64,000 bases of DNA from a virus. Taxonomy: Duplodnaviria; Caudoviricetes. Location: IMG/VR virus record IMGVR_UViG_3300025133_000094, positions 1,182-65,181 of that record; one strand, given 5' to 3'. Made by a program: the position numbers and the translations under genes. This document shows positions 408 to 62,295 of the stretch, piece by piece (the first letter of the stretch is position 1; the number at the start of each line of letters is the position of its first letter). The notes under the pieces were generated by a model. It did no database searches, was not told the origin of the DNA, and saw nothing but the letters and a program-made list of their open reading frames with translations.

Positions 408-713
408 ATGGGACTAGACTATAGAGAAGATGGTAGATTTATTAAAGAAGATGGCGAAGCCCGTAAGCCAAAGAACGATCCGCATAATCCTAAGAATCTA
501 ATGAGGAGACAAAGAGACAAGGAGGGGGATGGCTATAATCAAGCCAAAGAAGGGTGGAGTCCAACAGCGTGGAATGATAGCGGTGCTGGTAAGGGAGACG
601 CACCTAGACCACATGGTTGTTCGACAGAAGAGTGGGGATTGAAATATGATTTAGCTACCGGAAGAATAACTAAAGAAGAATTCGATAAAGGTATGGAGGA
701 ACTCAACTCTTGA
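408..713 (+). CDS. Hypothetical phage protein (an ATG at 315 would give a leaderless alternative start)
   Basis: ORF 315-713; GGAG precedes ATG 408; stop overlaps the RNAP start. Confidence 0.6.
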   Translation: MGLDYREDGRFIKEDGEARKPKNDPHNPKNLMRRQRDKEGDGYNQAKEGWSPTAWNDSGAGKGDAPRPHGCSTEEWGLKYDLATGRITKEEFDKGMEELNS

Positions 714-3151
714 AGTGGGCTAATGAAACAGATGTAACTAAGAGTAAAAGGCGGGGTGCTCAAGTAAAGTATGAAGAACAAGTACTTATGTATAGTCGTT
801 CTAAATATTGGGATGAATATAATAGAGCACCTGATGAGGGTGTTCCAGAACAAGAGCTTCTTGATTCTTCTGTTAAAGAATTAAGAGATACTTATCAAGA
901 GTGGATAGATAATGCCGTGTCTTCAACTAAGACACCGTCTTGGGTAAGACCTCTACTAGAATTGGGTGCATCTAAGATGGCCGATATAACTATACGAGCT
1001 GTCATGAGATGTTGGTTCTCTTCTAATTTCTGGGGACATACACTAGAAGATGATACTCATAACGCACCACTAGCTCAGACAGTTGCTAATTTAATAGCAC
1101 AAGATAGTTCAGATATAATATCTTATCAGAATGCTAAGAGTAATAACAAAAGCGATTGGATGAGTCAATCCAAGTTCATTAAAAACTGGACAGAGAAAAG
1201 ATGTAAAGCTTTTTCTAAAAAGATGGGCGAACATATTAAACTTGGTATAAAAGAGAAGCATAACTTTGGGCATAACATGTTACGTATAGCTGCGACTAGT
1301 AATATAATAAACATGGAGGTTCGCTCTGTTAGACGGGGTAGGTTATATAAGAAGTATAGCTTTGTAGAGTTTCATTCTTCTATACTATCTAAACTACACA
1401 ACAAACATGCGTTACTACAGACTAGTACTCTAGTCTATAGGCCTATGCTTACGCCTCCTGAATTACATACCGAAGCGTCTAGTGGTGGGTATATACACAG
1501 AGATATGCGTAAGCCTGTAGTACAGAGATATAAATCTAACTACTGGGGTGATGATATTAAGGATCAGAAGTTTTCTGTTCCATCTAGCTTAGTATTAGAT
1601 GGACTCAATGGTTTAATGTTAACTGAATGGGCTGTTAATGAGGATGTATTAGAAGTTATGACAAGCATGTTTGAAAATAATATGTGTGTTGCTAATCTTC
1701 CTGCCTATAATTTTGAAGAGTTTATGTATAATGTGGAGTATCCCTCTGATGGTACTAAAGTAGATAAAGCTATATGGTGTCAGCGTAGACAGGAAGCGTG
1801 GTCGGACTGGTATAGACAAGAACAATCTCGTGGACGTATGTTAATTAGATTACAATTAGCTAATGACCTTAAGAAGTGGGGGTATTTTTATCAAGTATAT
1901 ACTCTAGATTTTAGGGGACGGGCTTATACTATATGTGAACTGCTTAGTTGTCAGTCTTCTGACTTTGATAAAGGCTTAGTTAAGTTTGCTAATCCTGTAA
2001 AGCTTACAGCTAGAGGTCTTTGGTGGTTAAAGGTTAGCTTAGCTGGGCTCTTTGACCAAGACAAGGGCACACTCGAGTCTCGTGTTAAATGGGTTGATGA
2101 TAATTGGGATATGATAAAACGTATTAACGATAATCCTTATGAGAACTATGAGTGGATAGATCAACGAAAGAAAAAGAATAAATCTTTTCAAAGGTTAGCT
2201 GCTATAAAGAATATATGTAGAGAGGATGGCATGTCTTATTTACCAGTACAGTTAGATGGTAGGTGTAATGGTTCTCAGCATTGGTCTGCTATTATGGGAG
2301 ATCCTTTAATAGCTGAGAAAACTTGTGTCATTCCTTCAAAGAAACCTCAGGATTTATATCAGTTTGTTGCTGACTCAGTAACAGACTATTGTTTACTACA
2401 TAAAACCGAAAAAAAATGGTGCAAAATTTTTCTGGAACATTGGAATGGCTCTATAGATAGGGCTGTTGCTAAACGTCCTACTATGTGTGACCCATATGGT
2501 TTAACATTTTATGGAATACAAAAGTATTTAAAAGTAGAAGGTCACCTTGACTGGGTATCTAAAGATAAACAAGGGGGAGCTATAGTTGAATTAGCTAGAG
2601 CTATAAAGGCAAGCATGGATAAATGTTTAGCCGAACCTAACAGGGGTAAAGAATATTTAAAAGAGGTCGTTGGTATAGCCAATGATTTAAATAAACATAT
2701 AGAATATACTACCCCTTCTGGATTTAAGGTTGTTCATTATTACAACCAAGTTAATTCAAGAAGATCGGTAGCTAAGTTGTTTGGGAATAAGGAACTCTCT
2801 TTCTTTATACCAACTACAGACGTGAACAAACGGTCGGCACTACAAGCAATAGCGCCGAATTTTATTCACAGTTTGGATGCTGCTCACATGTTCCTAACAT
2901 TAGTTAGGTTGTTACATATGAGTGTGTTCAGTCTAAGTTTCATCCACGATTCTTATGGCTGTCATGCTAATTTTGTAGATGACATGAGAGATATACTCAG
3001 AGAGGAGTTCTTGAAAATTCATAATGATAATCCATTAGAAAATTTCAAGAAGGATGTACAGAATCAACTAGGTGTTATGCTACCTGAAGTACCCAAGCGT
3101 GGTGCTTTGATTATAGCTGACGTTTTAGATTCTGAATACTTCTTTGCATAA
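710..3151 (+). CDS. T7-like single-subunit DNA-dependent RNA polymerase (gp1-like)
   Basis: 813 aa; DFRGRAY, motif A QLDGRCNGSQH, motif B RAVAKRPTMCDPYG, APNFIHSLDAAH, motif C FIHDSYG; TTG start after GGAGGA. Confidence 0.98.
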   Translation: MKWANETDVTKSKRRGAQVKYEEQVLMYSRSKYWDEYNRAPDEGVPEQELLDSSVKELRDTYQEWIDNAVSSTKTPSWVRPLLELGASKMADITIRAVMRCWFSSNFWGHTLEDDTHNAPLAQTVANLIAQDSSDIISYQNAKSNNKSDWMSQSKFIKNWTEKRCKAFSKKMGEHIKLGIKEKHNFGHNMLRIAATSNIINMEVRSVRRGRLYKKYSFVEFHSSILSKLHNKHALLQTSTLVYRPMLTPPELHTEASSGGYIHRDMRKPVVQRYKSNYWGDDIKDQKFSVPSSLVLDGLNGLMLTEWAVNEDVLEVMTSMFENNMCVANLPAYNFEEFMYNVEYPSDGTKVDKAIWCQRRQEAWSDWYRQEQSRGRMLIRLQLANDLKKWGYFYQVYTLDFRGRAYTICELLSCQSSDFDKGLVKFANPVKLTARGLWWLKVSLAGLFDQDKGTLESRVKWVDDNWDMIKRINDNPYENYEWIDQRKKKNKSFQRLAAIKNICREDGMSYLPVQLDGRCNGSQHWSAIMGDPLIAEKTCVIPSKKPQDLYQFVADSVTDYCLLHKTEKKWCKIFLEHWNGSIDRAVAKRPTMCDPYGLTFYGIQKYLKVEGHLDWVSKDKQGGAIVELARAIKASMDKCLAEPNRGKEYLKEVVGIANDLNKHIEYTTPSGFKVVHYYNQVNSRRSVAKLFGNKELSFFIPTTDVNKRSALQAIAPNFIHSLDAAHMFLTLVRLLHMSVFSLSFIHDSYGCHANFVDDMRDILREEFLKIHNDNPLENFKKDVQNQLGVMLPEVPKRGALIIADVLDSEYFFA

Positions 3152-3162
3152 GGAGAAGCAAG

Positions 3163-3396
3163 ATGCATATCTTTATTGAGAGCGAAGGAGACATACAACT
3201 AGGTGTTAAACACTGTAGTGAATTAGCTAAGATGCGAGGCAAGAAGTTTATTACTCTTGTCTTTCCTTCAGAGTTATTATACAAAGTGTTTATGAATGAT
3301 TTAGTTTTAGAGTTTGAGCAAGATAATAATCTTCCCGGTAACGTGGATATCGAAGCAAATATTATCCTGCCTTTTGAGGAGGGTAACAATGGCTAA
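3163..3396 (+). CDS. Hypothetical protein
   Basis: AGGAG RBS, 77 aa, tight operon packing. Confidence 0.75.
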   Translation: MHIFIESEGDIQLGVKHCSELAKMRGKKFITLVFPSELLYKVFMNDLVLEFEQDNNLPGNVDIEANIILPFEEGNNG

Positions 3397-4051
3397 TGTT
3401 TTAGTTATAGGTGATTTACACCTACCTGCCGAACGATCGGACTATTTAAAGTTTTGTCGATCGATGAAAAGAAAGTATAAGACAACTACGGTTGTGTTTA
3501 TAGGTGATATATTAGATCATCATGCTATATCTTATCATCAAAAGAATCCTGATAGCGATGGTGCTGTTGAGGAATACACAAAAGCCATGAAGTCCTTACG
3601 ACAATGGTACAAAGCATTTCCCGATGCTTATGTATGTATAGGTAATCATGACGAACGGGTGCATAGACTTGCTGCTAGTAGCGGCATACCTGCTATGTAT
3701 CTAAGAGACTATCCCGATGTATATGATACACCTGGATGGGACTGGGATTATGAACATCACATTGATGATGTTTATTACTATCACGGAACTGGTGCAAGCA
3801 GTGGCTTGTGTCCTGCATTCAATACAGCTAAGGCTAGGATGCAGAGTGCAGTAGCTGGTCATGTACATTCAACAGCTGGTATACTTTATACCGCTGGTCC
3901 TACCGGAGAGAAATTATTCGGAATGAATGTACCTGGGGGGGTTGACAAAGATCACCCTTTGATGTATTATAGTAGAAACTTTCTACGCAAGCCCGTTAAT
4001 GGCGTAGGTATTGTTAAGAATGGTAAACCTTATTTGGAGGTAATGGATTAA
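3389..4051 (+). CDS. Calcineurin-like metallophosphoesterase
   Basis: GDLH, GDILD, GNHD, HG and GHVH motifs; start moved to ATG 3389 after GAGGAGG. Confidence 0.93.
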   Translation: MANVLVIGDLHLPAERSDYLKFCRSMKRKYKTTTVVFIGDILDHHAISYHQKNPDSDGAVEEYTKAMKSLRQWYKAFPDAYVCIGNHDERVHRLAASSGIPAMYLRDYPDVYDTPGWDWDYEHHIDDVYYYHGTGASSGLCPAFNTAKARMQSAVAGHVHSTAGILYTAGPTGEKLFGMNVPGGVDKDHPLMYYSRNFLRKPVNGVGIVKNGKPYLEVMD

Positions 4052-4305
4052 TGAGTGATGCAATTAATGTTGATCAAGAATGGAAAGAAGAAGCTAAAAA
4101 ATCTAAAGAGAAGCTAGCTTCTGAAGAAAACCAGGGACAATCTTATGTCTCGTGTGCTGAGGTTGCTTTGTATTTAACAGAGTTAACTAAAGTATTAGAA
4201 CAAATTACTAGCGGCATTCGTAGCTCGTTAGAAGAAATGCTTAAGCGAGCTGCTGATAGCAAAGAAAAATCTGATTCAAAAGGAGAAGATAATGATGGCG
4301 AATAA
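4051..4305 (+). CDS. Hypothetical helical protein
   Basis: TAATG stop/start overlap, 84 aa. Confidence 0.7.
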   Translation: MSDAINVDQEWKEEAKKSKEKLASEENQGQSYVSCAEVALYLTELTKVLEQITSGIRSSLEEMLKRAADSKEKSDSKGEDNDGE

Positions 4306-4828
4306 AGTACGTCCGTTTACAACGGAAACACTTGATGTAAGGTGGTCACACCTACATGCACATGATGTAAAATTCGGAGAGGACTCAGCTAACCATAACA
4401 TAACTGTTGTTGTTGATGATACTCTTCAGAAACAACTTGACAAAGCTATGGCAGAAGCTGGAGCTACTAAGATTAACGGTCTTCGCACTGATGATGAAGG
4501 CGTTACCTTGCTTAAAGCTAAGTCTAAGAACTTTGTTAAGAAGGATATTAAAGTATTCCCTTGCCGAGACGCAAGTGCTGAAGCTACTGAGGCTACTCCA
4601 TATGGTGGAGATAAGGTTCGACTACGGTTGGCTCCTATCACACTGACAAGAGATAACTCAATGAGTTTCTTTCTTAATGGTTGTCAAATAATTGAGAAGA
4701 ATGAAATGGGTGGTGAGGGTGGAGGCTTCGAAGCTACTGATGGTTTCGACGGCTCTACTTACAAGGCTACTACAACTGTAACTACTGCCGATGATGGCAC
4801 AGATGCAACTGACGACATCCCATTCTAA
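4292..4828 (+). CDS. Single-stranded DNA-binding protein (T7 gp2.5-like)
   Basis: GGDKVRL and FFLNGCQIIE resemble gp2.5; acidic tail ending DDIPF; position before resolvase and primase. Confidence 0.85.
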   Translation: MMANKVRPFTTETLDVRWSHLHAHDVKFGEDSANHNITVVVDDTLQKQLDKAMAEAGATKINGLRTDDEGVTLLKAKSKNFVKKDIKVFPCRDASAEATEATPYGGDKVRLRLAPITLTRDNSMSFFLNGCQIIEKNEMGGEGGGFEATDGFDGSTYKATTTVTTADDGTDATDDIPF

Positions 4829-57527: not shown

Positions 57528-57558
57528 AAAAGACAAAGGAGAAATCCTTTGTTTTTTT
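57528..57558 (+). terminator. Intrinsic terminator ending the late operon
   Basis: ACAAAGGA-GAAA-TCCTTTGT followed by a T run; A-tract upstream suggests it may work in both directions. Confidence 0.85.
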
Positions 57559-57696
57559 CCACGGGAATCGACTATAGGGGTCACGAATTTATCTGGGGTG
57601 GTGTATGGATTAGCAGGGCTGTAGTGCCCCCCGTACCCCCCAGGTTGACGCCTGCCAGGCTGGTGGTATTCGTAGCAGGTAAAAAGGAAAATTATT

Positions 57697-57966
57697 ATGC
57701 TTATAATAATAGGGATCGTAGCGATCATTGGCATCGTGGCAGTAGTACTCACTGTACTGAACTTGGACCATCCTAGTATGAGTCTGGAGGAGGACAGTGA
57801 TGATCTACGCCGCCGTCATAACCAGAAGGTTCGTAACGCTGGTTATACAACGATGAAAATTCTCGTCGAGGACGAGGATCGAAAGTGCTGGTCGTGTGGG
57901 CATATATTTGGAACTGACGACTCCATGTGTTGCCGACACTGCGAGCACCCAATGGCGAGCGAGTAA
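57697..57966 (+). CDS. Membrane-anchored zinc-ribbon protein
   Basis: N-terminal hydrophobic helix; CWSC...CRHC; AAGGA RBS. Confidence 0.7.
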   Translation: MLIIIGIVAIIGIVAVVLTVLNLDHPSMSLEEDSDDLRRRHNQKVRNAGYTTMKILVEDEDRKCWSCGHIFGTDDSMCCRHCEHPMASE

Positions 57967-58033
57967 GCCGAAACTACCGGCGTGAGCCTGGTAGTCTGTC
58001 GTGAGTGGTCTCACGGCACTGACGAGGCAGACC
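57967..58033 (+). ncRNA. Type II hammerhead ribozyme, predicted cleavage after C57996
   Basis: GCC-GAAA-CTACC..GGTAG-TC^-TGTCGTGAG..CTCACGGCA-CTGACGA-GGC: complete core and three stems; 3' AGACC can pair with loop I GGTCT. Confidence 0.93.
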
Positions 58034-58070
58034 CTCAGCTCTCTGGTGCTTAGCACCAAAGGAATCCTTT

Positions 58071-58313
58071 ATGAAAAAAGGAAAAAGTAAGAAAGGTAAG
58101 CCGAATCCTTCGAAGAGACGGCGCACTACGTTGCAGCGAGCCGCGGCAGAAGCCCGTACTCGCATGAACAAGGATCGTCGTATAGCACGTTCGATGCGTT
58201 TCAGCGGTAGCAAAGGTTGTATTCGTTTAACCGAATGGATATATAATAGCCGCCGAGACAGCTTAGTATCTCGAACTAATCGCAAAGCAATCGTCCACGT
58301 TCCTGCTGCATAA
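58071..58313 (+). CDS. Small, very basic (Lys/Arg-rich) protein, possibly nucleic-acid binding
   Basis: 80 aa, MKKGKSKKGKPNPSKRRR...; AAGGA RBS inside the hairpin AAAGG-AAT-CCTTT. Confidence 0.7.
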   Translation: MKKGKSKKGKPNPSKRRRTTLQRAAAEARTRMNKDRRIARSMRFSGSKGCIRLTEWIYNSRRDSLVSRTNRKAIVHVPAA

Positions 58314-58446
58314 GTAGGATTCTAAGGGCATTCCACAACTAACTCAAGGCACTAACAAAAAGGAGACTTTGCCTATGATTTAAGGACTGCTAGTACCTAT
58401 ACTTCGGGAGTGTTACACTAATATCCTTTAATGGAGAATTTCTATT

Positions 58447-60294
58447 ATGAAATCAAAAGATATAAAGACCGCATCAGAGAATGTGGCATCAAAGCTAGCA
58501 TTACAGCGAGGACGCCTACGTTCTTTCTTGTTCCACAGAGGTGGAAAGAAAGTAACGGGCGTGGCTGTGGACCACCTCCTTGGTCTGACCGAGGAAGCAT
58601 TGTTCGACAACGGTATCGTCGTGGACAGTGACATGCTCAACGGAGCTGTCGCCCAAGGCGTTACTACAGCAACTCGTAAGATACTACATAAGAACCTATT
58701 GACCGAATCTTGGCAGGCTCGTCGTGACGGCAACGTCTCGACAAACCCTATCGAGTTGACGGGATACTGGAAACCGATCGTCTCACGACGTGACAACCTT
58801 AAGCTGCCCTCTGAGTATAAGGACTTTATGCAGTATCAAAGTAATATAGCAGTTCGTTACAACAAAGACATGGTGACTGCCCTAGTCGCATGGCAAGAGA
58901 AGTTTGGTCCTGATGACAAACTTGTTCTCTCTAAACGAGATCTTGAGACCATCAATAAGGTAGGGTACGTAGTTATCTACCAACCTTACTACATTGCATG
59001 TCGCGTTGCACGTATCTACCAAGGCACACAGGGTGCAGGTGGCTACACTAACGGCAAGGGGGTACGCTATAGTACTGAGTTCGCTGAAGGTCGAAAGGTT
59101 AATGGCAAGCAACAGGCACAATTTATGACTCACATAAAAGCTGAGTATAAGTATAAGAAGGCTCATTCAAAATTCTTAGGTGACAATACACTGGCTAACC
59201 GTACTGCGTTCTTACGTAAGTATGGTAACCCTGGTTTGTTACGTGCGTGTCTCGAGCTTATCTACATTGCTGAGACTAAGAAGTCAACGATGATTATCTG
59301 GCAAGACGTGCACACCTCATTAGTGTGTCATATCTATGCTATGTTGCGTCGTAAGAACTTACGCAGTATTGTAGACATTAACCATCCAAAGTGGTTCAAT
59401 CGTCATGATTACTACATGAACAACATGTTAAGTAGCTCTCTCGATAGCGCTCCTTTCTTTCGAGCATGTACTCCAGGACAACGTGCATTGTTTACTAAAC
59501 CATCCTTTGTACCGTTTGGTCACGGAGCTGGTGCTGACTCTTGTCGGTACTCTGTACTCAACACAGATGATATGCACTGGAATGCCGAAGCTCCAACGGA
59601 ATTGCGTGACACTATGAGCTTGAACGAATTGGTTGACGCCATACGTACAGGCACTAAGCAGGTCCGAATTCCTGAACAGTTCAAACTTGCTCTTCGAGCA
59701 GCTTGGCCTGGTTGGAGTAAGAAGAAAGCTATTACTGAAGATATGTACAAGGACAAACTTGTTATAATCTTTGATGATCTTAAGACTGTGTTCGCTGGTT
59801 CCTACAATCCATTAGTTCGGTTTAATAACCGTGCCGTATTGGTGAAAGAGGCATCAGATACTATAGGCAAGCTACCACCTTCATATACCAACAGGTTTGG
59901 AATGAAGCTCGTGCAAACGAGATGGAAGCGAGATCCTAACAGCTCACGCACTATTAAGAACAAAACCACTTTAGCTGGTGTTACTCCCACGCCATTGGAT
60001 GTTACCTTCGATAAGCGAGTCGCCTGCACAGGCAGCGAGTTCGCAGTCAGTATGCCTCACTATAAGGATGCTGAAATGAATGTCGGAATCGGTAATGAAT
60101 TCATCCAAGCTGATAAAGACTGCCTAAGTATCCACGATGCTTGGGGTGTACGGCTAGAAGACATGGACTTCTTAATTGAAGTCAGTGCCAGACAGTTTAG
60201 ATACACGCATGAAGAACCTATGCTTAATAGCATGGGGTATGAAGTGCCTGCAACTTTACCACACCTTGGTGATAAATTCCAAATCGTTCGTTAA
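58447..60294 (+). CDS. Divergent, short T7-family single-subunit polymerase (615 aa)
   Basis: Colinear motifs RVARIYQ (DxRGRxY-like), WQDVHTS (A, D287), RALFTKPSFVPFGHGAG (B), PHYKDA, LSIHDAWG (C, D564). Confidence 0.88.
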   Translation: MKSKDIKTASENVASKLALQRGRLRSFLFHRGGKKVTGVAVDHLLGLTEEALFDNGIVVDSDMLNGAVAQGVTTATRKILHKNLLTESWQARRDGNVSTNPIELTGYWKPIVSRRDNLKLPSEYKDFMQYQSNIAVRYNKDMVTALVAWQEKFGPDDKLVLSKRDLETINKVGYVVIYQPYYIACRVARIYQGTQGAGGYTNGKGVRYSTEFAEGRKVNGKQQAQFMTHIKAEYKYKKAHSKFLGDNTLANRTAFLRKYGNPGLLRACLELIYIAETKKSTMIIWQDVHTSLVCHIYAMLRRKNLRSIVDINHPKWFNRHDYYMNNMLSSSLDSAPFFRACTPGQRALFTKPSFVPFGHGAGADSCRYSVLNTDDMHWNAEAPTELRDTMSLNELVDAIRTGTKQVRIPEQFKLALRAAWPGWSKKKAITEDMYKDKLVIIFDDLKTVFAGSYNPLVRFNNRAVLVKEASDTIGKLPPSYTNRFGMKLVQTRWKRDPNSSRTIKNKTTLAGVTPTPLDVTFDKRVACTGSEFAVSMPHYKDAEMNVGIGNEFIQADKDCLSIHDAWGVRLEDMDFLIEVSARQFRYTHEEPMLNSMGYEVPATLPHLGDKFQIVR

Positions 60295-60307
60295 TAACTA
60301 GTACGGA

Positions 60308-60334
60308 GGGGGAGGCCATATGTTTGGTCTCCCC
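60308..60334 (+). other. GC-rich intergenic hairpin without U tract
   Basis: GGGGAGGCCA-TATGTT-TGGTCTCCCC. Confidence 0.6.
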
Positions 60335-60366
60335 TGATGTACGCAATCAGGAAAGGGATTTCTATT

Positions 60367-60942
60367 ATGACTAAAACAAAGAAATCAAAGTTACGCTGGG
60401 CCTCTCTTATATATCCAGCATCTATGGCTGATATATCAGGTCACTGTATTCTTGTCTTCGATACGGAACTTAAGAATTATACCATTAGGTTCCTTACCCA
60501 TGATCTTGACCCTAAGCACATGTATTACTCAGGTGTTACGGAAGAGGTAATTGGTGTAGACGGCAACAGTATTACTAAAGGTGAGATTGGTAATATATGT
60601 AATAGAATCGGCTTACGCTTGAAGCCTCGCTTAGAGATAAATACTTTCGATGTGAGTGAGTATTATACCTTACACTACGGTGATGAGGTGATTGCTACAC
60701 ACAAAGGAAATAAGATGTCTGTCTCTATTACTGGCAGAAGTACCGTTTACTTCGATGATGTAGGAGAGCCTATTGAAATCACAGTAAAAGGTAAACCTGC
60801 TGTTAGCTTAAAGGCAGCTCGTGCCTCATGGTGGAGCGAAGCAAAGAATTATCCAGCCATACACTGGAAGGGTGATTTAGCTGTGCTTTGCGTTGCTGAT
60901 GAGATCAACATCGATGTTGATGATGATGATGATGCTGCTTGA
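60367..60942 (+). CDS. Hypothetical beta-rich protein with acidic C-terminal tail (191 aa)
   Basis: Start moved to ATG 60367, which shares the ATTTCTATTATGA context with 58447; ends DVDDDDDAA. Confidence 0.75.
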   Translation: MTKTKKSKLRWASLIYPASMADISGHCILVFDTELKNYTIRFLTHDLDPKHMYYSGVTEEVIGVDGNSITKGEIGNICNRIGLRLKPRLEINTFDVSEYYTLHYGDEVIATHKGNKMSVSITGRSTVYFDDVGEPIEITVKGKPAVSLKAARASWWSEAKNYPAIHWKGDLAVLCVADEINIDVDDDDDAA

Positions 60943-60944
60943 TG

Positions 60945-61011
60945 ACTCGTCTGGGCGAGTATAAATAGAACCTAAGCCTAGAGCGTCCGACCCTACGGGG
61001 TCGGGGCGTTT
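60945..61011 (+). ncRNA. Pistol ribozyme, predicted cleavage between G61006 and C61007
   Basis: P1 ACTCG/CGAGT; loop TCTGGG pseudoknots with CCTAGA; ATAAATAG linker; TAAG..AGCG; P2 TCCGACCC-TACG-GGGTCGGG; P3 AAC/GTT. Confidence 0.92.
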
Positions 61012-61275
61012 CCCCTAAGTGGGCCTATCTACCATGATTTTTTATGAAGGGTGTACCCCGTTCAAGATACAGCCGTATAGGTGTGTAAGGGCTGTATCGC
61101 AATAGGTGGGTTAAGAGAACAAGGGTGGATATAATATAGGGTATACCTAGGTCTTAGGGTATACGTAAGTATAGCCAGGAGAACCCTAGGGTTCCAGTAC
61201 AGGGCAAGCCGGGGGACCTTAGGTCCGCGGCTTGCCCCATCAGCCAGAAATTATGGTCAAGTTCCCTGACTGGCA
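61012..61275 (+). other. Structured non-coding segment of stacked hairpins
   Basis: GATACAGCC/GGCTGTATC, GTATACC/GGTATAC, GAACCC/GGGTTC, GGGCAAGCCG..CGGCTTGCCC, GCCAG/CTGGC; no ORF. Confidence 0.6.
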
Positions 61276-61318
61276 GGTAACAGTATCATAATAATCACCC
61301 TATTAGAAGGAGAATATC

Positions 61319-61576
61319 ATGCCAAATGATAAACTTACCCCTAATGACGTGGCGAAAGCCGAAGCAGTCCTTAACGGCAAGGGTTTCACTACCGTAAAGC
61401 GGTACACAGACCCTGACACCATGGATTTCGATGAGCTGTGCTTCACTCTTAACAACAAGAGTGCTATCGCAGCAGCAACGAAGGCTATGAAACGTAAAGG
61501 TTGGACCTCGCATCCGTATCTTACACACATTAAAGCGTGTGAGGCGAAGCTAAAGTCCTTACTGGCTAACGGTTAA
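61319..61576 (+). CDS. Hypothetical protein (85 aa)
   Basis: AAGGAG RBS; followed by a hairpin. Confidence 0.8.
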   Translation: MPNDKLTPNDVAKAEAVLNGKGFTTVKRYTDPDTMDFDELCFTLNNKSAIAAATKAMKRKGWTSHPYLTHIKACEAKLKSLLANG

Positions 61577-61631: not shown

Positions 61632-62295
61632 AAGTAACAGCAACACCCTAAGCTTACAGGGGTGTAGCTCTTGAGCTATGCAAACTTCAGCAGCTCTCAG
61701 CTGATATCAAAGAGAGACAACCCACACTGGGACCCATCAACTGTGGTCGGGTGTGTACCCTGTTCAACAAAGGCGTTCGACAGGGCATGTTGTCATGGAC
61801 ATCCCATGTAACCCCGCTTTACTTATGTAATGACATGGCGAGGTGTCCGTGACAACATGAAAAACCAAGGTCGCTCCTTGGTCGGTGAGTTGGCACCTGA
61901 ATACCATCATGGTAATGCATTACTATGATGGGGCTAGAGGGCTTCACTCGTTCTAATAGAGTGACATCGATATCTAATAAACTAATGCACGACGGTGCAG
62001 TTCGTGGCTGAACAATCTCTTCAGTAAGGAGATAAGGCACACAGTAGACCATGGTGGTCTGACCAATGTACACAATGTATGAGGTCATCCTCGTGACTGA
62101 GGATAAGGTGGTAGGTGGTTGTAACAAATAATATTGCTCCTCTGCCCTGTAGGTAATAAAAGAATCCTACCGAACACAAACAACAACCTTGTGAGACATG
62201 CACGGAGGTGTGTAGTCCTAGGCTACCTAAACTAGATGCCCTCACATTGTAGTATAACCTCTCGTCTCGTCCACGATACGGACACAATATACTTA
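61632..62295 (+). ncRNA. Candidate large structured non-coding RNA, class not recognised
   Basis: About 660 nt with no credible ORF and at least 10 hairpins, several with G-U pairs that favour the + strand. Confidence 0.6.

What the first reader, a model, noticed from the sequence alone, without database searches (positions are those of the whole stretch)
57967..61011. Polymerase cassette bracketed by two different self-cleaving ribozymes
Seen: a complete hammerhead (cut after 57996) and a complete pistol (cut after 61006), both on the sense strand. They lie just outside a three-gene unit: basic 80-aa protein, divergent T7-family polymerase, acidic-tailed 191-aa protein. Established: both ribozyme classes leave a 5'-OH and a 2',3'-cyclic phosphate, which are the ends RtcB ligates, and T7 RNAP can copy some RNA templates. 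Inference: the phage excises a 3010-nt RNA (57997-61006) that could circularise and encodes its own polymerase. It could be a stabilised circular mRNA or a phage-launched RNA replicon or retro-like element. The conservative reading is that the ribozymes replace the RNase III processing that T7 uses on its early mRNA. I know of no described system with this layout.
Basis: partly seen in the sequence, partly recalled or inferred. Interest (0 to 1): 0.95.

Follow-up and report, generated by a model that had tools for sequence, protein, structure and literature searches.

The report
Ribozyme-flanked second polymerase gene in phage
An uncultured marine T7-like phage carries a second, very divergent small RNA polymerase gene with a self-cutting hammerhead RNA before it and a self-cutting pistol RNA after it, most likely to trim its messenger RNA out of a longer transcript, an arrangement of a kind already described in phages but still untested.

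Summary
Rfam finds a type II hammerhead (57966-58036, 51.5 bits, cut-off 37) and a pistol (60945-61011, 66.1 bits, cut-off 34.5), both on the + strand, and no other ribozyme in the window. The 615-aa protein between them misses Pfam. A profile of it and its relatives matches solved mitochondrial and T7 RNA polymerases.

The window is a T7-like podophage that also has a canonical 813-aa polymerase. The cassette lies between the last giant structural gene and that canonical gene.

The conserved unit is smaller than described: leader, polymerase and the 191-aa protein. The basic 80-aa ORF is an orphan.

Ribozyme linkage recurs but not as a pair. Of six small-polymerase lineages, four have the pistol, two the hammerhead, one none, and only this window has both.

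Best reading: ribozymes process a polycistronic transcript, the job RNase III does on T7 early mRNA. No evidence supports a circle or replicon: no RtcB, no end complementarity, no antisense ribozyme. No RNA data were available.

Ribozymes flanking phage gene blocks were described in 2011 (PMC3088659), and this scan has noted similar operons in other genomes.

The parts
57534..57558 (+). Hairpin (CAAAGGA-GAAA-UCCUUUG) followed by seven T: a terminator-like site after the 5183-aa ORF
   Evidence: Sequence; the same hairpin and T-run occur in L003 and L001. The consensus scan did not list it.
57566..57641 (+). Conserved non-coding element: a T7-promoter-like word (AATCGACTATAGGGGTCAC), then G-runs and C-runs around a variable centre. 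Possibly a promoter plus leader for the unit that holds the cassette.
   Evidence: Unique in the window at up to 3 mismatches. Present directly after the giant-ORF stop in L001, L003, L063 and L023. The alignment is conserved in sequence with almost no covariation. Its function is inferred.
57697..57966 (+). 89-aa ORF (hydrophobic N-terminus, weak zinc-ribbon match); its stop codon overlaps the first base of the hammerhead
   Evidence: Pfam Zn_ribbon_3 E 1.9e-4, below its cut-off; not conserved in L003 or L063.
57966..58036 (+). Type II hammerhead ribozyme; predicted cut after C57996
   Evidence: Rfam 51.5 bits against 37. Core GAAA, GUC and CUGACGA intact. Stem I 9 bp, stem III 8 bp with a GUGA loop, stem II 3 bp, and GGUCU (58007-58011) complementary to AGACC (58029-58033). 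A second copy of this layout occurs in L063.
58071..58313 (+). 80-aa basic ORF, an orphan; coding status uncertain
   Evidence: Its only database match is a 99% identical copy. No similarity to the ORFs at the same place in L001 or L063.
58374..58400 (+). Conserved leader word TATGATTTAAGGACYRCTAGTACCTAT before the polymerase gene; it contains a 2-codon mini-ORF (ATG ATT TAA)
   Evidence: Window sequence compared with L003 and L002.
58447..60294 (+). 615-aa divergent single-subunit (T7-like) RNA polymerase, called sRNAP here
   Evidence: Invariant across 10 sequences: R189, D287, K351, G360, D564.
60367..60942 (+). 191-aa protein with an acidic tail, co-conserved with sRNAP in close relatives; no known family
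   Evidence: 53-55% identical in L001 and L002; 5 database relatives; no Pfam or PHROG family; AlphaFold model poor, pLDDT 39.5.
60945..61011 (+). Pistol ribozyme; predicted cut between G61006 and C61007
   Evidence: Rfam 66.1 bits against 34.5. The 7-bp pseudoknot is kept through compensatory changes in relatives. Conserved at this place in L001-L003.
61012..61318 (+). Conserved, apparently non-coding 307-nt stretch that would carry the 5'-OH end made by the pistol
   Evidence: Long identical blocks between the window and L002; no Rfam match.
61319..61576 (+). Conserved 85-aa ORF of unknown function, the first gene after the pistol
   Evidence: 76% identical to L002 3220-3471; no Pfam or PHROG family.
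61986..62180 (+). manA RNA motif (RF01745)
   Evidence: 69.2 bits against 55.2. Also downstream of the pistol in L002 and L003. Weaker, sub-threshold matches next to the pistol in L021, L022 and L023.
710..3151 (+). Canonical 813-aa T7-like RNA polymerase of the same phage (context)
   Evidence: phrog_414 E 5.9e-147; the only Pfam RNA_pol match in the genome.

Best explanation
The two ribozymes are cis-acting processing signals in a long, rightward phage transcript. They cut themselves as the RNA is made.

The hammerhead begins on the stop codon of the variable upstream ORF. It detaches that ORF's RNA and leaves the polymerase message with a 5'-hydroxyl end that starts with the 9-bp stem I hairpin.

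The pistol begins 2 nt after the stop of the 191-aa gene. It leaves its own compact pseudoknot fold, ending in a 2',3'-cyclic phosphate, as the 3' end of that message. It also frees the conserved downstream leader, the 85-aa gene and the manA RNA with a 5'-hydroxyl end.

The result is a defined 3.0-kb mRNA for the second polymerase and its partner, with stability and translation uncoupled from its neighbours. This is the job host RNase III does on T7 early mRNA (recalled textbook knowledge), done here without a host enzyme.

Shown: both motifs are intact, and their positions and conservation pattern are as stated. Inferred: that they cleave in vivo, that one transcript spans them, and that the ends stabilise the message.
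For: - Both motifs score well above the Rfam gathering thresholds, and there are no others in the window.
- All genes in the window, and both ribozymes, are on the + strand.
- Both ribozymes abut stop codons. The hammerhead overlaps the stop at 57964-57966 and does the same in L063. The pistol starts 0-2 nt after the stop in the window, L001 and L002.
- The pistol is kept downstream of the small polymerase in 4 of 6 lineages (window, L001, L002/L003, G001), and also after a 721-aa second polymerase in L021/L022/L038.
- A hammerhead of the same subtype sits upstream of the small polymerase in a second, distant lineage, L063/G005.
- The pistol pseudoknot keeps 7 pairs through three sequence variants, and P3 differs entirely between lineages. 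Hammerhead stem III differs entirely between the window and L063 while the core is kept.
- The sequence just 3' of the pistol cut is strongly conserved.
- Published precedent: ribozymes flanking genes in prophages, which cleaved in vitro in ~2-kb native transcripts, with processing proposed (PMC3088659, passages; review PMC6765202, section 13).
Against: - No RNA data: none of the 24 listed runs is on record as holding this stretch as RNA, so neither cleavage nor a transcript spanning both sites is shown.
- The pair is not conserved. The hammerhead is absent in L001, L003 and G001. G006 has no ribozyme in the sequence held. The polymerase message therefore does not need both cuts.
- The pistol linker is GC instead of the usual GU, and AU in L001 and L002. 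A review says this dinucleotide is only modestly conserved (PMC6154101), but activity of a GC site was not checked.
- Hammerhead stem II has only 3 bp. Perreault et al. report active natural hammerheads with 1-2 bp.
- The promoter and the timing of the unit are unknown.
Confidence: 0.6

Rival explanations
1. The ribozymes serve their neighbours rather than the polymerase message. The pistol mainly makes the 5' end of the conserved downstream RNA (307-nt leader, 85-aa gene, manA RNA). The hammerhead mainly ends or destabilises the variable accessory ORF upstream. The bracket around the polymerase is then a by-product of two independent boundaries.
For: - The 307 nt after the pistol cut and the 85-aa gene are among the best-conserved parts of the region.
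- A pistol and a manA-like RNA lie within about 1.1 kb of each other in the window, L002/L003, L021/L022 and L023. In L023 the order is reversed.
- Many of the 34 other pistol loci examined sit beside tRNA genes rather than protein genes.
- Each ribozyme occurs without the other in relatives.
Against: - It differs from the best explanation only in which side benefits.
- The pistol leaves nearly all of its fold on the upstream fragment, directly after the 191-aa gene's stop codon, in 3 of 3 close relatives.
- The manA matches in L021-L023 are below the gathering score.
Confidence: 0.15
2. The ribozymes are passengers with little function here. They would be small mobile or recombining modules that travel with accessory genes in a hypervariable slot, kept because they do no harm.
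For: - The interval between the conserved leader and the polymerase gene differs in every lineage.
- The 80-aa ORF next to the hammerhead is an orphan.
- The 3' 43 nt of the hammerhead differ at one base between the window and L063, although their polymerases are barely alignable and the flanks are unrelated.
- The same 19-nt hammerhead word occurs in 28 viral contigs and the pistol word in 39, mostly in unrelated contexts.
Against: - The pistol keeps its exact position after the 191-aa gene in relatives that are only 61-67% identical in protein.
- Its helices show compensatory change, which indicates selection on the fold.
- Both ribozymes are placed at stop codons and not at random in intergenic space.
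Confidence: 0.15
3. One reading: the 3010-nt RNA (57997-61006), with 5'-OH and 2',3'-cyclic phosphate ends, is joined by a host RtcB-type ligase into a circular mRNA. It is possibly copied by the encoded polymerase as an RNA replicon.
For: - The end chemistry expected of both ribozyme classes fits RtcB (established knowledge, recalled).
- The excised RNA would encode a polymerase.
- In the motif I assign as motif B, this clade has His where the distant relatives have Tyr at the position matching T7 Y639. That leaves its substrate or template preference open.
Against: - Both ribozymes occur together in only 1 of 6 small-polymerase lineages.
- No RtcB in the phage genome.
- No ribozyme on the minus strand.
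- The ends have no special complementarity: duplex -33.7 kcal/mol against a shuffle mean of -39.5 (sd 5.0), and 267 of 300 shuffles were as good or better.
- The polymerase's conserved motifs are those of DNA-dependent single-subunit RNAPs.
- Perreault et al. looked for circular products of flanking hammerheads and detected none.
Confidence: 0.04

Closest known systems
Clustered self-cleaving ribozymes flanking genes in phages and prophages (Perreault et al. 2011, PMC3088659; review PMC6765202)
   Same: Two self-cleaving ribozymes on the coding strand bracket a short block of phage genes. A type II hammerhead with a loop I / 3'-tail pseudoknot is involved. Processing of a long phage transcript is the proposed role, and circular products were considered.
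   Different: The two ribozymes here belong to different classes (hammerhead and pistol). The host element is an uncultured lytic-type T7-like marine phage and not a prophage. The cargo is a second RNA polymerase. In relatives only one of the two ribozymes is usually present.
RNase III processing of T7 early mRNA
   Same: A polycistronic T7-like phage transcript is cut at intergenic structures, including on both sides of a polymerase gene, leaving structured ends.
   Different: T7 uses a host protein enzyme acting on double-stranded stems. Here the RNA would cut itself and leave 5'-OH and cyclic-phosphate ends. This is a functional analogy and not homology.
Phage N4 RNA polymerase II (gp15 + gp16)
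   Same: A small, minimal T7-like polymerase (269 + 404 aa in N4; 615 aa here) encoded in addition to another phage polymerase.
   Different: The N4 enzyme is split into two genes, and this one is a single ORF. Profile comparison gives no significant match (probability 1.4% and 0.6%). N4 has no canonical T7-type polymerase, and I know of no ribozymes there (recalled).
Pistol ribozyme family (Rfam RF02679; Harris et al. 2015, PMC4604425)
   Same: P1, P2, P3, the pseudoknot, the conserved AUAAA junction, a 2-nt linker and a phage context.
   Different: The cleavage dinucleotide is GC instead of GU.

Membership tests
Hammerhead ribozyme, type II (RF02276) | Covariance-model score at or above the curated gathering score | tested here: met
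   51.5 bits against 37, E 1.1e-07 in 64 kb
Hammerhead ribozyme, type II (RF02276) | Catalytic core CUGANGA ... GAAA with an NUH cleavage triplet; stems I and III closed, stem II open | tested here: met
   CUGACGA at 58019-58025, GAAA at 57970-57973, GUC ending at 57996. Stem I 9 bp, stem III 8 bp with one bulge, stem II 3 bp
Hammerhead ribozyme, type II (RF02276) | Tertiary contact: pseudoknot between loop I and the 3' tail | tested here: met
   GGUCU 58007-58011 is complementary to AGACC 58029-58033. The two outer pairs compete with the top of stem I. The feature is described in PMC3088659
Hammerhead ribozyme, type II (RF02276) | Self-cleavage | not testable with these tools
   No RNA run holds the stretch
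Pistol ribozyme (RF02679) | Covariance-model score at or above the curated gathering score | tested here: met
   66.1 bits against 34.5, E 8.2e-10
Pistol ribozyme (RF02679) | P1, P2, P3 and a pseudoknot of about 6 bp between the P1 loop and the P2-P3 junction | tested here: met
   7 complementary positions in the window and in L001, L002, L023 and L022, through three different sequence pairs. P3 differs in each
Pistol ribozyme (RF02679) | Two-nucleotide linker carrying the G-U cleavage site | tested here: inconclusive
   The linker length of 2 nt is kept. The dinucleotide is GC in the window, AU in L001 and L002, and GU in L023. A review calls the G-U modestly conserved and the length highly conserved (PMC6154101)
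Pistol ribozyme (RF02679) | Self-cleavage | not testable with these tools
   No RNA data
Single-subunit (T7-like) RNA polymerase | Match to Pfam RNA_pol (PF00940) over its cut-off | tested here: not met
   No Pfam hit for the 615-aa protein. Only the canonical gene matches in the whole genome. The distant relative P0012 reaches E 7.9e-4, below the cut-off
Single-subunit (T7-like) RNA polymerase | Profile-level homology to solved members | tested here: met
   The A2 profile matches human mitochondrial RNAP chains at E 4.6e-08 and T7 RNAP at E 0.018, both over the motif C region. hhalign against the phage's own RNAP: probability 80%, E 1.4e-05
Single-subunit (T7-like) RNA polymerase | Catalytic Asp of motifs A and C, Lys and (Y)G of motif B, R-x-x-R-x-Y (T/DxxGR-like) motif | tested here: met
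   D287, K351, G360, D564 and R189 are invariant in 10 sequences. Motif C is aligned by the tools. Motifs A, B and T/DxxGR are assigned by my inspection of the alignment. At the position matching T7 Tyr639, the 5 close sequences have His and the 5 distant ones have Tyr
Single-subunit (T7-like) RNA polymerase | Polymerase fold | tested here: inconclusive
   The AlphaFold model from 5 sequences has pLDDT 38.9. It was too poor for a fold search, so none was run
Viroid-like, retrozyme-like or circular RNA element | Circular junction, antisense RNA or ribozymes in both polarities | tested here: not met
   No ribozyme on the minus strand at E<=1. A junction could not be tested because there are no RNA runs
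Viroid-like, retrozyme-like or circular RNA element | Both delimiting ribozymes conserved with the cargo | tested here: not met
   Both are present in 1 of 6 small-polymerase lineages. In G005 and G006 the contig ends about 0.6 kb after the gene, so a downstream pistol cannot be excluded there
Phage N4 RNAPII | Heterodimer of two gene products; sequence relationship | tested here: not met
   Single ORF. hhalign probability 1.4% (gp16) and 0.6% (gp15)

The most novel reading that the evidence does not exclude
The hammerhead-to-pistol RNA (57997-61006) is ligated by a host RtcB-type enzyme into a 3.0-kb circular mRNA for the second polymerase, and may even be copied by that polymerase. This would be a phage-launched circular RNA. 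Nothing I could run excludes it, because no RNA data exist. Every indirect test came out against it.
Probability: 0.04. Interest if true: 0.9.

Novelty: new member of a known kind. Interest (0 to 1): 0.45.

Why it matters
What self-cleaving ribozymes do in phage genomes is still an open question. The 2019 review read here says that additional work is needed to define their purpose (PMC6765202).

This locus is a compact natural case. It has only two ribozymes, of two classes, around a defined and unusual cargo, in a phage type whose model member (T7) solves the same problem with host RNase III. The comparison across relatives narrows what the ribozymes can be for: the pistol is kept in four lineages, the hammerhead in two, and both in one.

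Separately, a clade of uncultured marine T7-like phages with giant virion-gene products and two single-subunit RNA polymerases does not appear in the papers I searched. It deserves its own study.

Tried and rejected
**RNA evidence.** The look-up of sequencing runs listed 24 runs, and no RNA holder was listed. Read laying on the four DNA runs X5-X8 showed more than 99% identical contigs covering both ribozymes, with no 61006-to-57997 joint. DNA contigs cannot speak to RNA ends or circles.

**Structures.** AlphaFold models of the polymerase (pLDDT 38.9) and of the 191-aa protein (pLDDT 39.5) were too poor, so no fold search was run. The Atlas search for the 191-aa protein gave no usable hit. No complex prediction was run.

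**Promoters.** The sigma-70 and terminator scan gave 15 promoter-like sites against 12.3 expected. Exact 10-mers shared between intergenic regions gave no promoter consensus, and the repeat search found none.

**Polymerase domain in the 5183-aa protein (another first-reader note).** Pfam, PHROGs and PDB sequence searches of that protein gave no hit. The idea is neither supported nor excluded.

**N4 RNAPII relationship.** Not significant.

**Searches for polymerase relatives that found nothing.**
- Viral contigs with A1 and with P0012.
- tblastn of the phage collection.

**Homology of the flanking small ORFs between lineages.** None found.

**Minimum-free-energy folding of 57950-58075.** It reproduces stem I but not the whole hammerhead. 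I do not count this against the motif.

**Literature.**
No listed paper's title or abstract describes a T7-like phage with a second small polymerase flanked by ribozymes.
- Weinberg et al. 2015 (PMC4509812) is not held.
- Two of the 39 pistol loci (L041, L042) were not scanned with Rfam.

Full report
**1. Is it there?**

Yes. cmscan against Rfam 15 at gathering thresholds finds three RNAs in the window, all on the + strand:
- Hammerhead_II at 57966-58036: 51.5 bits, cut-off 37, E 1.1e-07.
- Pistol at 60945-61011: 66.1 bits, cut-off 34.5, E 8.2e-10.
- manA RNA at 61986-62180.

A permissive scan of both strands at E<=1 adds nothing.

The hammerhead, read against the model and the sequence, has:
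- GAAA, the GUC triplet ending at C57996, and CUGACGA.
- A 9-bp stem I with loop UGGU.
- An 8-bp stem III with a GUGA loop.
- A 3-bp open stem II.
- A loop I / 3'-tail complementarity (GGUCU with AGACC) of the kind described for type II hammerheads.

Perreault et al. also report active natural examples with one or two pairs in stem II (PMC3088659, passages).

The pistol matches almost every conserved position. Its 2-nt P3-P2 linker is G61006-C61007 and not G-U. A review states that the G-U is only modestly conserved while the linker length is highly conserved (PMC6154101, passages).

**2. The genes between the ribozymes**

The 615-aa protein (58447-60294) has no Pfam family and no single-sequence PDB match. 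It has few relatives:
- 5 clusters in the 5.8-billion-protein index, counting its own.
- 9 representatives in the exhaustive search. Five of them are distant proteins of 584-619 aa at 26-28% identity.

A 10-sequence alignment (A2) has invariant R189, D287, K351, G360 and D564. As a profile it hits mitochondrial RNA polymerases at E 4.6e-08 and T7 RNA polymerase at E 0.018 over the motif C region. hhalign against the phage's own canonical polymerase gives probability 80%, E 1.4e-05.

I therefore accept it as a very divergent, short single-subunit RNA polymerase (sRNAP). Motif C is aligned by the tools. Motifs A, B and the R-x-x-R-x-Y motif are my reading of the alignment. In the motif B that I assign, the five close sequences have His where the five distant ones have Tyr, at the position that matches T7 Tyr639. 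The AlphaFold model was too poor to use (pLDDT 38.9).

The 191-aa acidic-tailed protein is 53-55% identical in related loci and has five database relatives. It has no family and no usable model.

The basic 80-aa ORF is an orphan. Its only match is a 99% identical copy. The ORFs at the same place in L001 and L063 are unrelated, as is the DNA there in L001 and L063.

The conserved unit is therefore a short leader word (58374-58400), the polymerase and the 191-aa protein.

**3. The phage and where the cassette sits**

All large ORFs are on the + strand. PHROGs identify the following:
- A canonical T7-type RNA polymerase at 710-3151 (E 5.9e-147).
- Primase-helicase, DNA polymerase and ribonucleotide reductase.
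- Portal, major capsid protein and tail tube proteins.
- Large terminase.

After these come ORFs of 2481 and 5183 aa without any family. The canonical polymerase is under 30% identical to that of any phage in the collection.

The record is 65,181 bp, 96% complete by CheckV, with no terminal overlap.

In other contigs the order is giant ORF, small or second polymerase, pistol, then the canonical polymerase. All are on one strand, with the middle of the matched polymerase ORF 3.5-3.9 kb past the pistol (L021, L022, L023, L038). G001 is rated 100% complete.

The cassette therefore lies in the interval between the last structural gene and the canonical polymerase gene.

Three contigs break inside that interval:
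- G000, 3.0 kb after the pistol.
- G005, about 0.65 kb after the polymerase gene.
- G006, 0.59 kb after the polymerase gene.

The physical genome ends may therefore lie there. I cannot tell whether the cassette is the first or the last DNA to enter the cell.

Directly after the giant ORF stop there is a hairpin with a T-run (57534-57558), followed by a conserved element beginning AATCGACTATAGGGGTCAC (57566-57641). That word is unique in the window. It is present at the same place in L001, L003, L063 and L023. It resembles T7-class promoters (recalled). It shows almost no covariation, so it may act as DNA. If it is a promoter, one transcript would start about 390 nt before the hammerhead.

**4. 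Do relatives link ribozymes to this polymerase?**

I could assemble six small-polymerase lineages.

| Lineage | Relation of its polymerase | Hammerhead | Pistol |
|---|---|---|---|
| Window | the query itself | yes | yes |
| L001 | 67% identical | none in the 915 nt back to the giant-ORF end | directly after the 191-aa gene |
| L002/L003 | 61-62% identical | none in 1081 nt of L003 | yes |
| G001/L023 | profile E 2.8e-52 | none in the whole 82-kb record at E<=1 | downstream, after a sub-threshold manA-like match |
| G005/L063 | profile E 3.4e-63 | type II, 43.1 bits, starting on the stop codon of the upstream ORF as in the window | none in the record, which ends about 0.65 kb after the gene |
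| G006/L083 | 65% identical to L023's | none | none; the record ends 0.59 kb after the gene |

A seventh lineage (L021, L022, L034, L038, near-identical to each other) has a 721-aa T7-like second polymerase followed by a pistol, a weak manA-like match, a tRNA and then the canonical polymerase.

So a ribozyme adjoins the small polymerase in 5 of 6 lineages. The pistol is present in 4, the hammerhead in 2, and both in 1.

The folds show selection:
- The pistol pseudoknot keeps seven pairs through three different sequence pairs.
- P3 is different in every lineage.
- Hammerhead stem III is unrelated between the window and L063. Their 43-nt 3' parts (stem I, the CUGACGA core and the 3' tail) differ at one base.

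Among 34 other viral contigs that carry the pistol word:
- 33 have a pistol over the gathering score.
- 3 have a second self-cleaving ribozyme in the stored flank: L014 and L017 with two pistols each, and L032 with two pistols and a twister.
- None has a hammerhead.
- Many sit beside tRNA genes.

L041 and L042 were not scanned.

**5. How it most likely works**

Both ribozymes begin at or within 2 nt of a stop codon, on the coding strand of a one-directional genome. Three consequences follow from the structures, provided the ribozymes cut.
- The hammerhead cut would give the downstream message a 5'-hydroxyl end beginning with stem I.
- The pistol cut would leave the pistol fold with a cyclic phosphate at the 3' end of the message.
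- The pistol cut would also leave a 5'-hydroxyl on a 307-nt stretch that is strongly conserved between the window and L002. That stretch leads into an 85-aa gene that is 76% identical and then the manA RNA.

That such ends protect or uncouple the messages is inference from general knowledge of bacterial RNA decay (recalled). This is the published proposal for flanking ribozymes in phages and the functional equivalent of RNase III sites in T7 early RNA (recalled). I give it 0.6.

The variant in which the neighbours are the real beneficiaries, and the passenger reading, get 0.15 each.

**6. The circle or replicon idea**

I found nothing for it beyond the end chemistry. The evidence against it is:
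- The pair of ribozymes is not conserved (section 4).
- The phage has no RtcB.
- No ribozyme lies on the minus strand.
- The first and last 80 nt pair no better than shuffles: -33.7 against -39.5 (sd 5.0) kcal/mol, and 267 of 300 shuffles did at least as well.
- The polymerase's motifs are those of DNA-dependent enzymes.
- Perreault et al. looked for circular or spliced products and saw none.

It cannot be excluded without RNA data, which were not available. I give it 0.04.

**7. Novelty**

The kind of arrangement, self-cleaving ribozymes close together and flanking phage genes, is in print (PMC3088659; PMC6765202; PMC4604425 for pistols near phage genes). Earlier follow-ups of this scan noted similar ribozyme-punctuated operons in other genomes.

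New here are the hammerhead-pistol combination, the T7-like marine phage, the polymerase cargo, and the finding that each ribozyme is linked to that cargo on its own in different lineages. I class it as a new member of a known kind, interest 0.45.

The two-polymerase phage clade itself may be the more original point. I found no paper on it in five searches. Supplements and Weinberg et al. 2015 could not be read.

Noticed in passing
window 57566-57641; L003 604-680; L001 137-213; L063 10789-10868; L023 8800-8722 (minus strand): A conserved element directly after the giant-ORF stop in five lineages. It has a T7-promoter-like word (AATCGACTA(TA)GGGG), then GGGG and CCCC runs around a variable centre. 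It occurs once per genome, matches no Rfam family and shows almost no covariation. It could be a promoter, a genome-end signal or an RNA leader.
   Followed up: partly
window 61012-61318 and L002 2896-3219: The 307 nt after the pistol cut have no listed ORF of 40 aa or more on the + strand and are conserved in long identical blocks. This may be a structured leader or small RNA with no Rfam match.
   Followed up: partly
window 58374-58400; L003 about 1013-1040; L002 about 236-262: A conserved word before the small polymerase gene contains a two-codon mini-ORF (ATG ATT TAA) behind a Shine-Dalgarno-like AAGGAG. It could be a translational control element.
   Followed up: no
window 58447-60294 (residue 359): In the motif I assign as motif B, the five close relatives have His where the five distant relatives have Tyr. 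This position matches T7 Tyr639, which T7 uses to select ribonucleotides (recalled).
   Followed up: partly
window 34471-57467: Two ORFs of 2481 and 5183 aa follow the terminase module and match no Pfam family and no annotated PHROG family; the only hit is one weak match of the 2481-aa ORF to an unannotated PHROG (E 1.2e-4). Homologs of the larger one precede the small polymerase in L023 and L063. Another first-reader note proposes a packaged polymerase domain inside it. My sequence searches gave no hit.
   Followed up: partly
L022 4542-6707 (minus strand); also L021, L038: Another marine phage lineage carries a 721-aa T7-like second polymerase upstream of a pistol and the canonical 833-aa polymerase downstream. 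Two-polymerase T7-like phages are therefore wider than the 615-aa family.
   Followed up: partly
window 61986-62180; L002 3938-4130; L003 4715-4904: A manA RNA motif lies about 1 kb downstream of the pistol. Sub-threshold manA-like matches lie next to the pistol in L021, L022 and L023.
   Followed up: partly
L089 (G006:C1:1-5000) 2478-4335: Four tRNA genes lie at the start of the G006 contig, in the interval that would follow its small polymerase on a circular map.
   Followed up: no
runs X7 and X8: The same marine metagenomes hold other contigs that match only the pistol (60945-60988) or only the 3' part of the hammerhead (57993-58026), with unrelated flanks. These ribozyme subtypes are therefore common in that habitat.
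   Followed up: no
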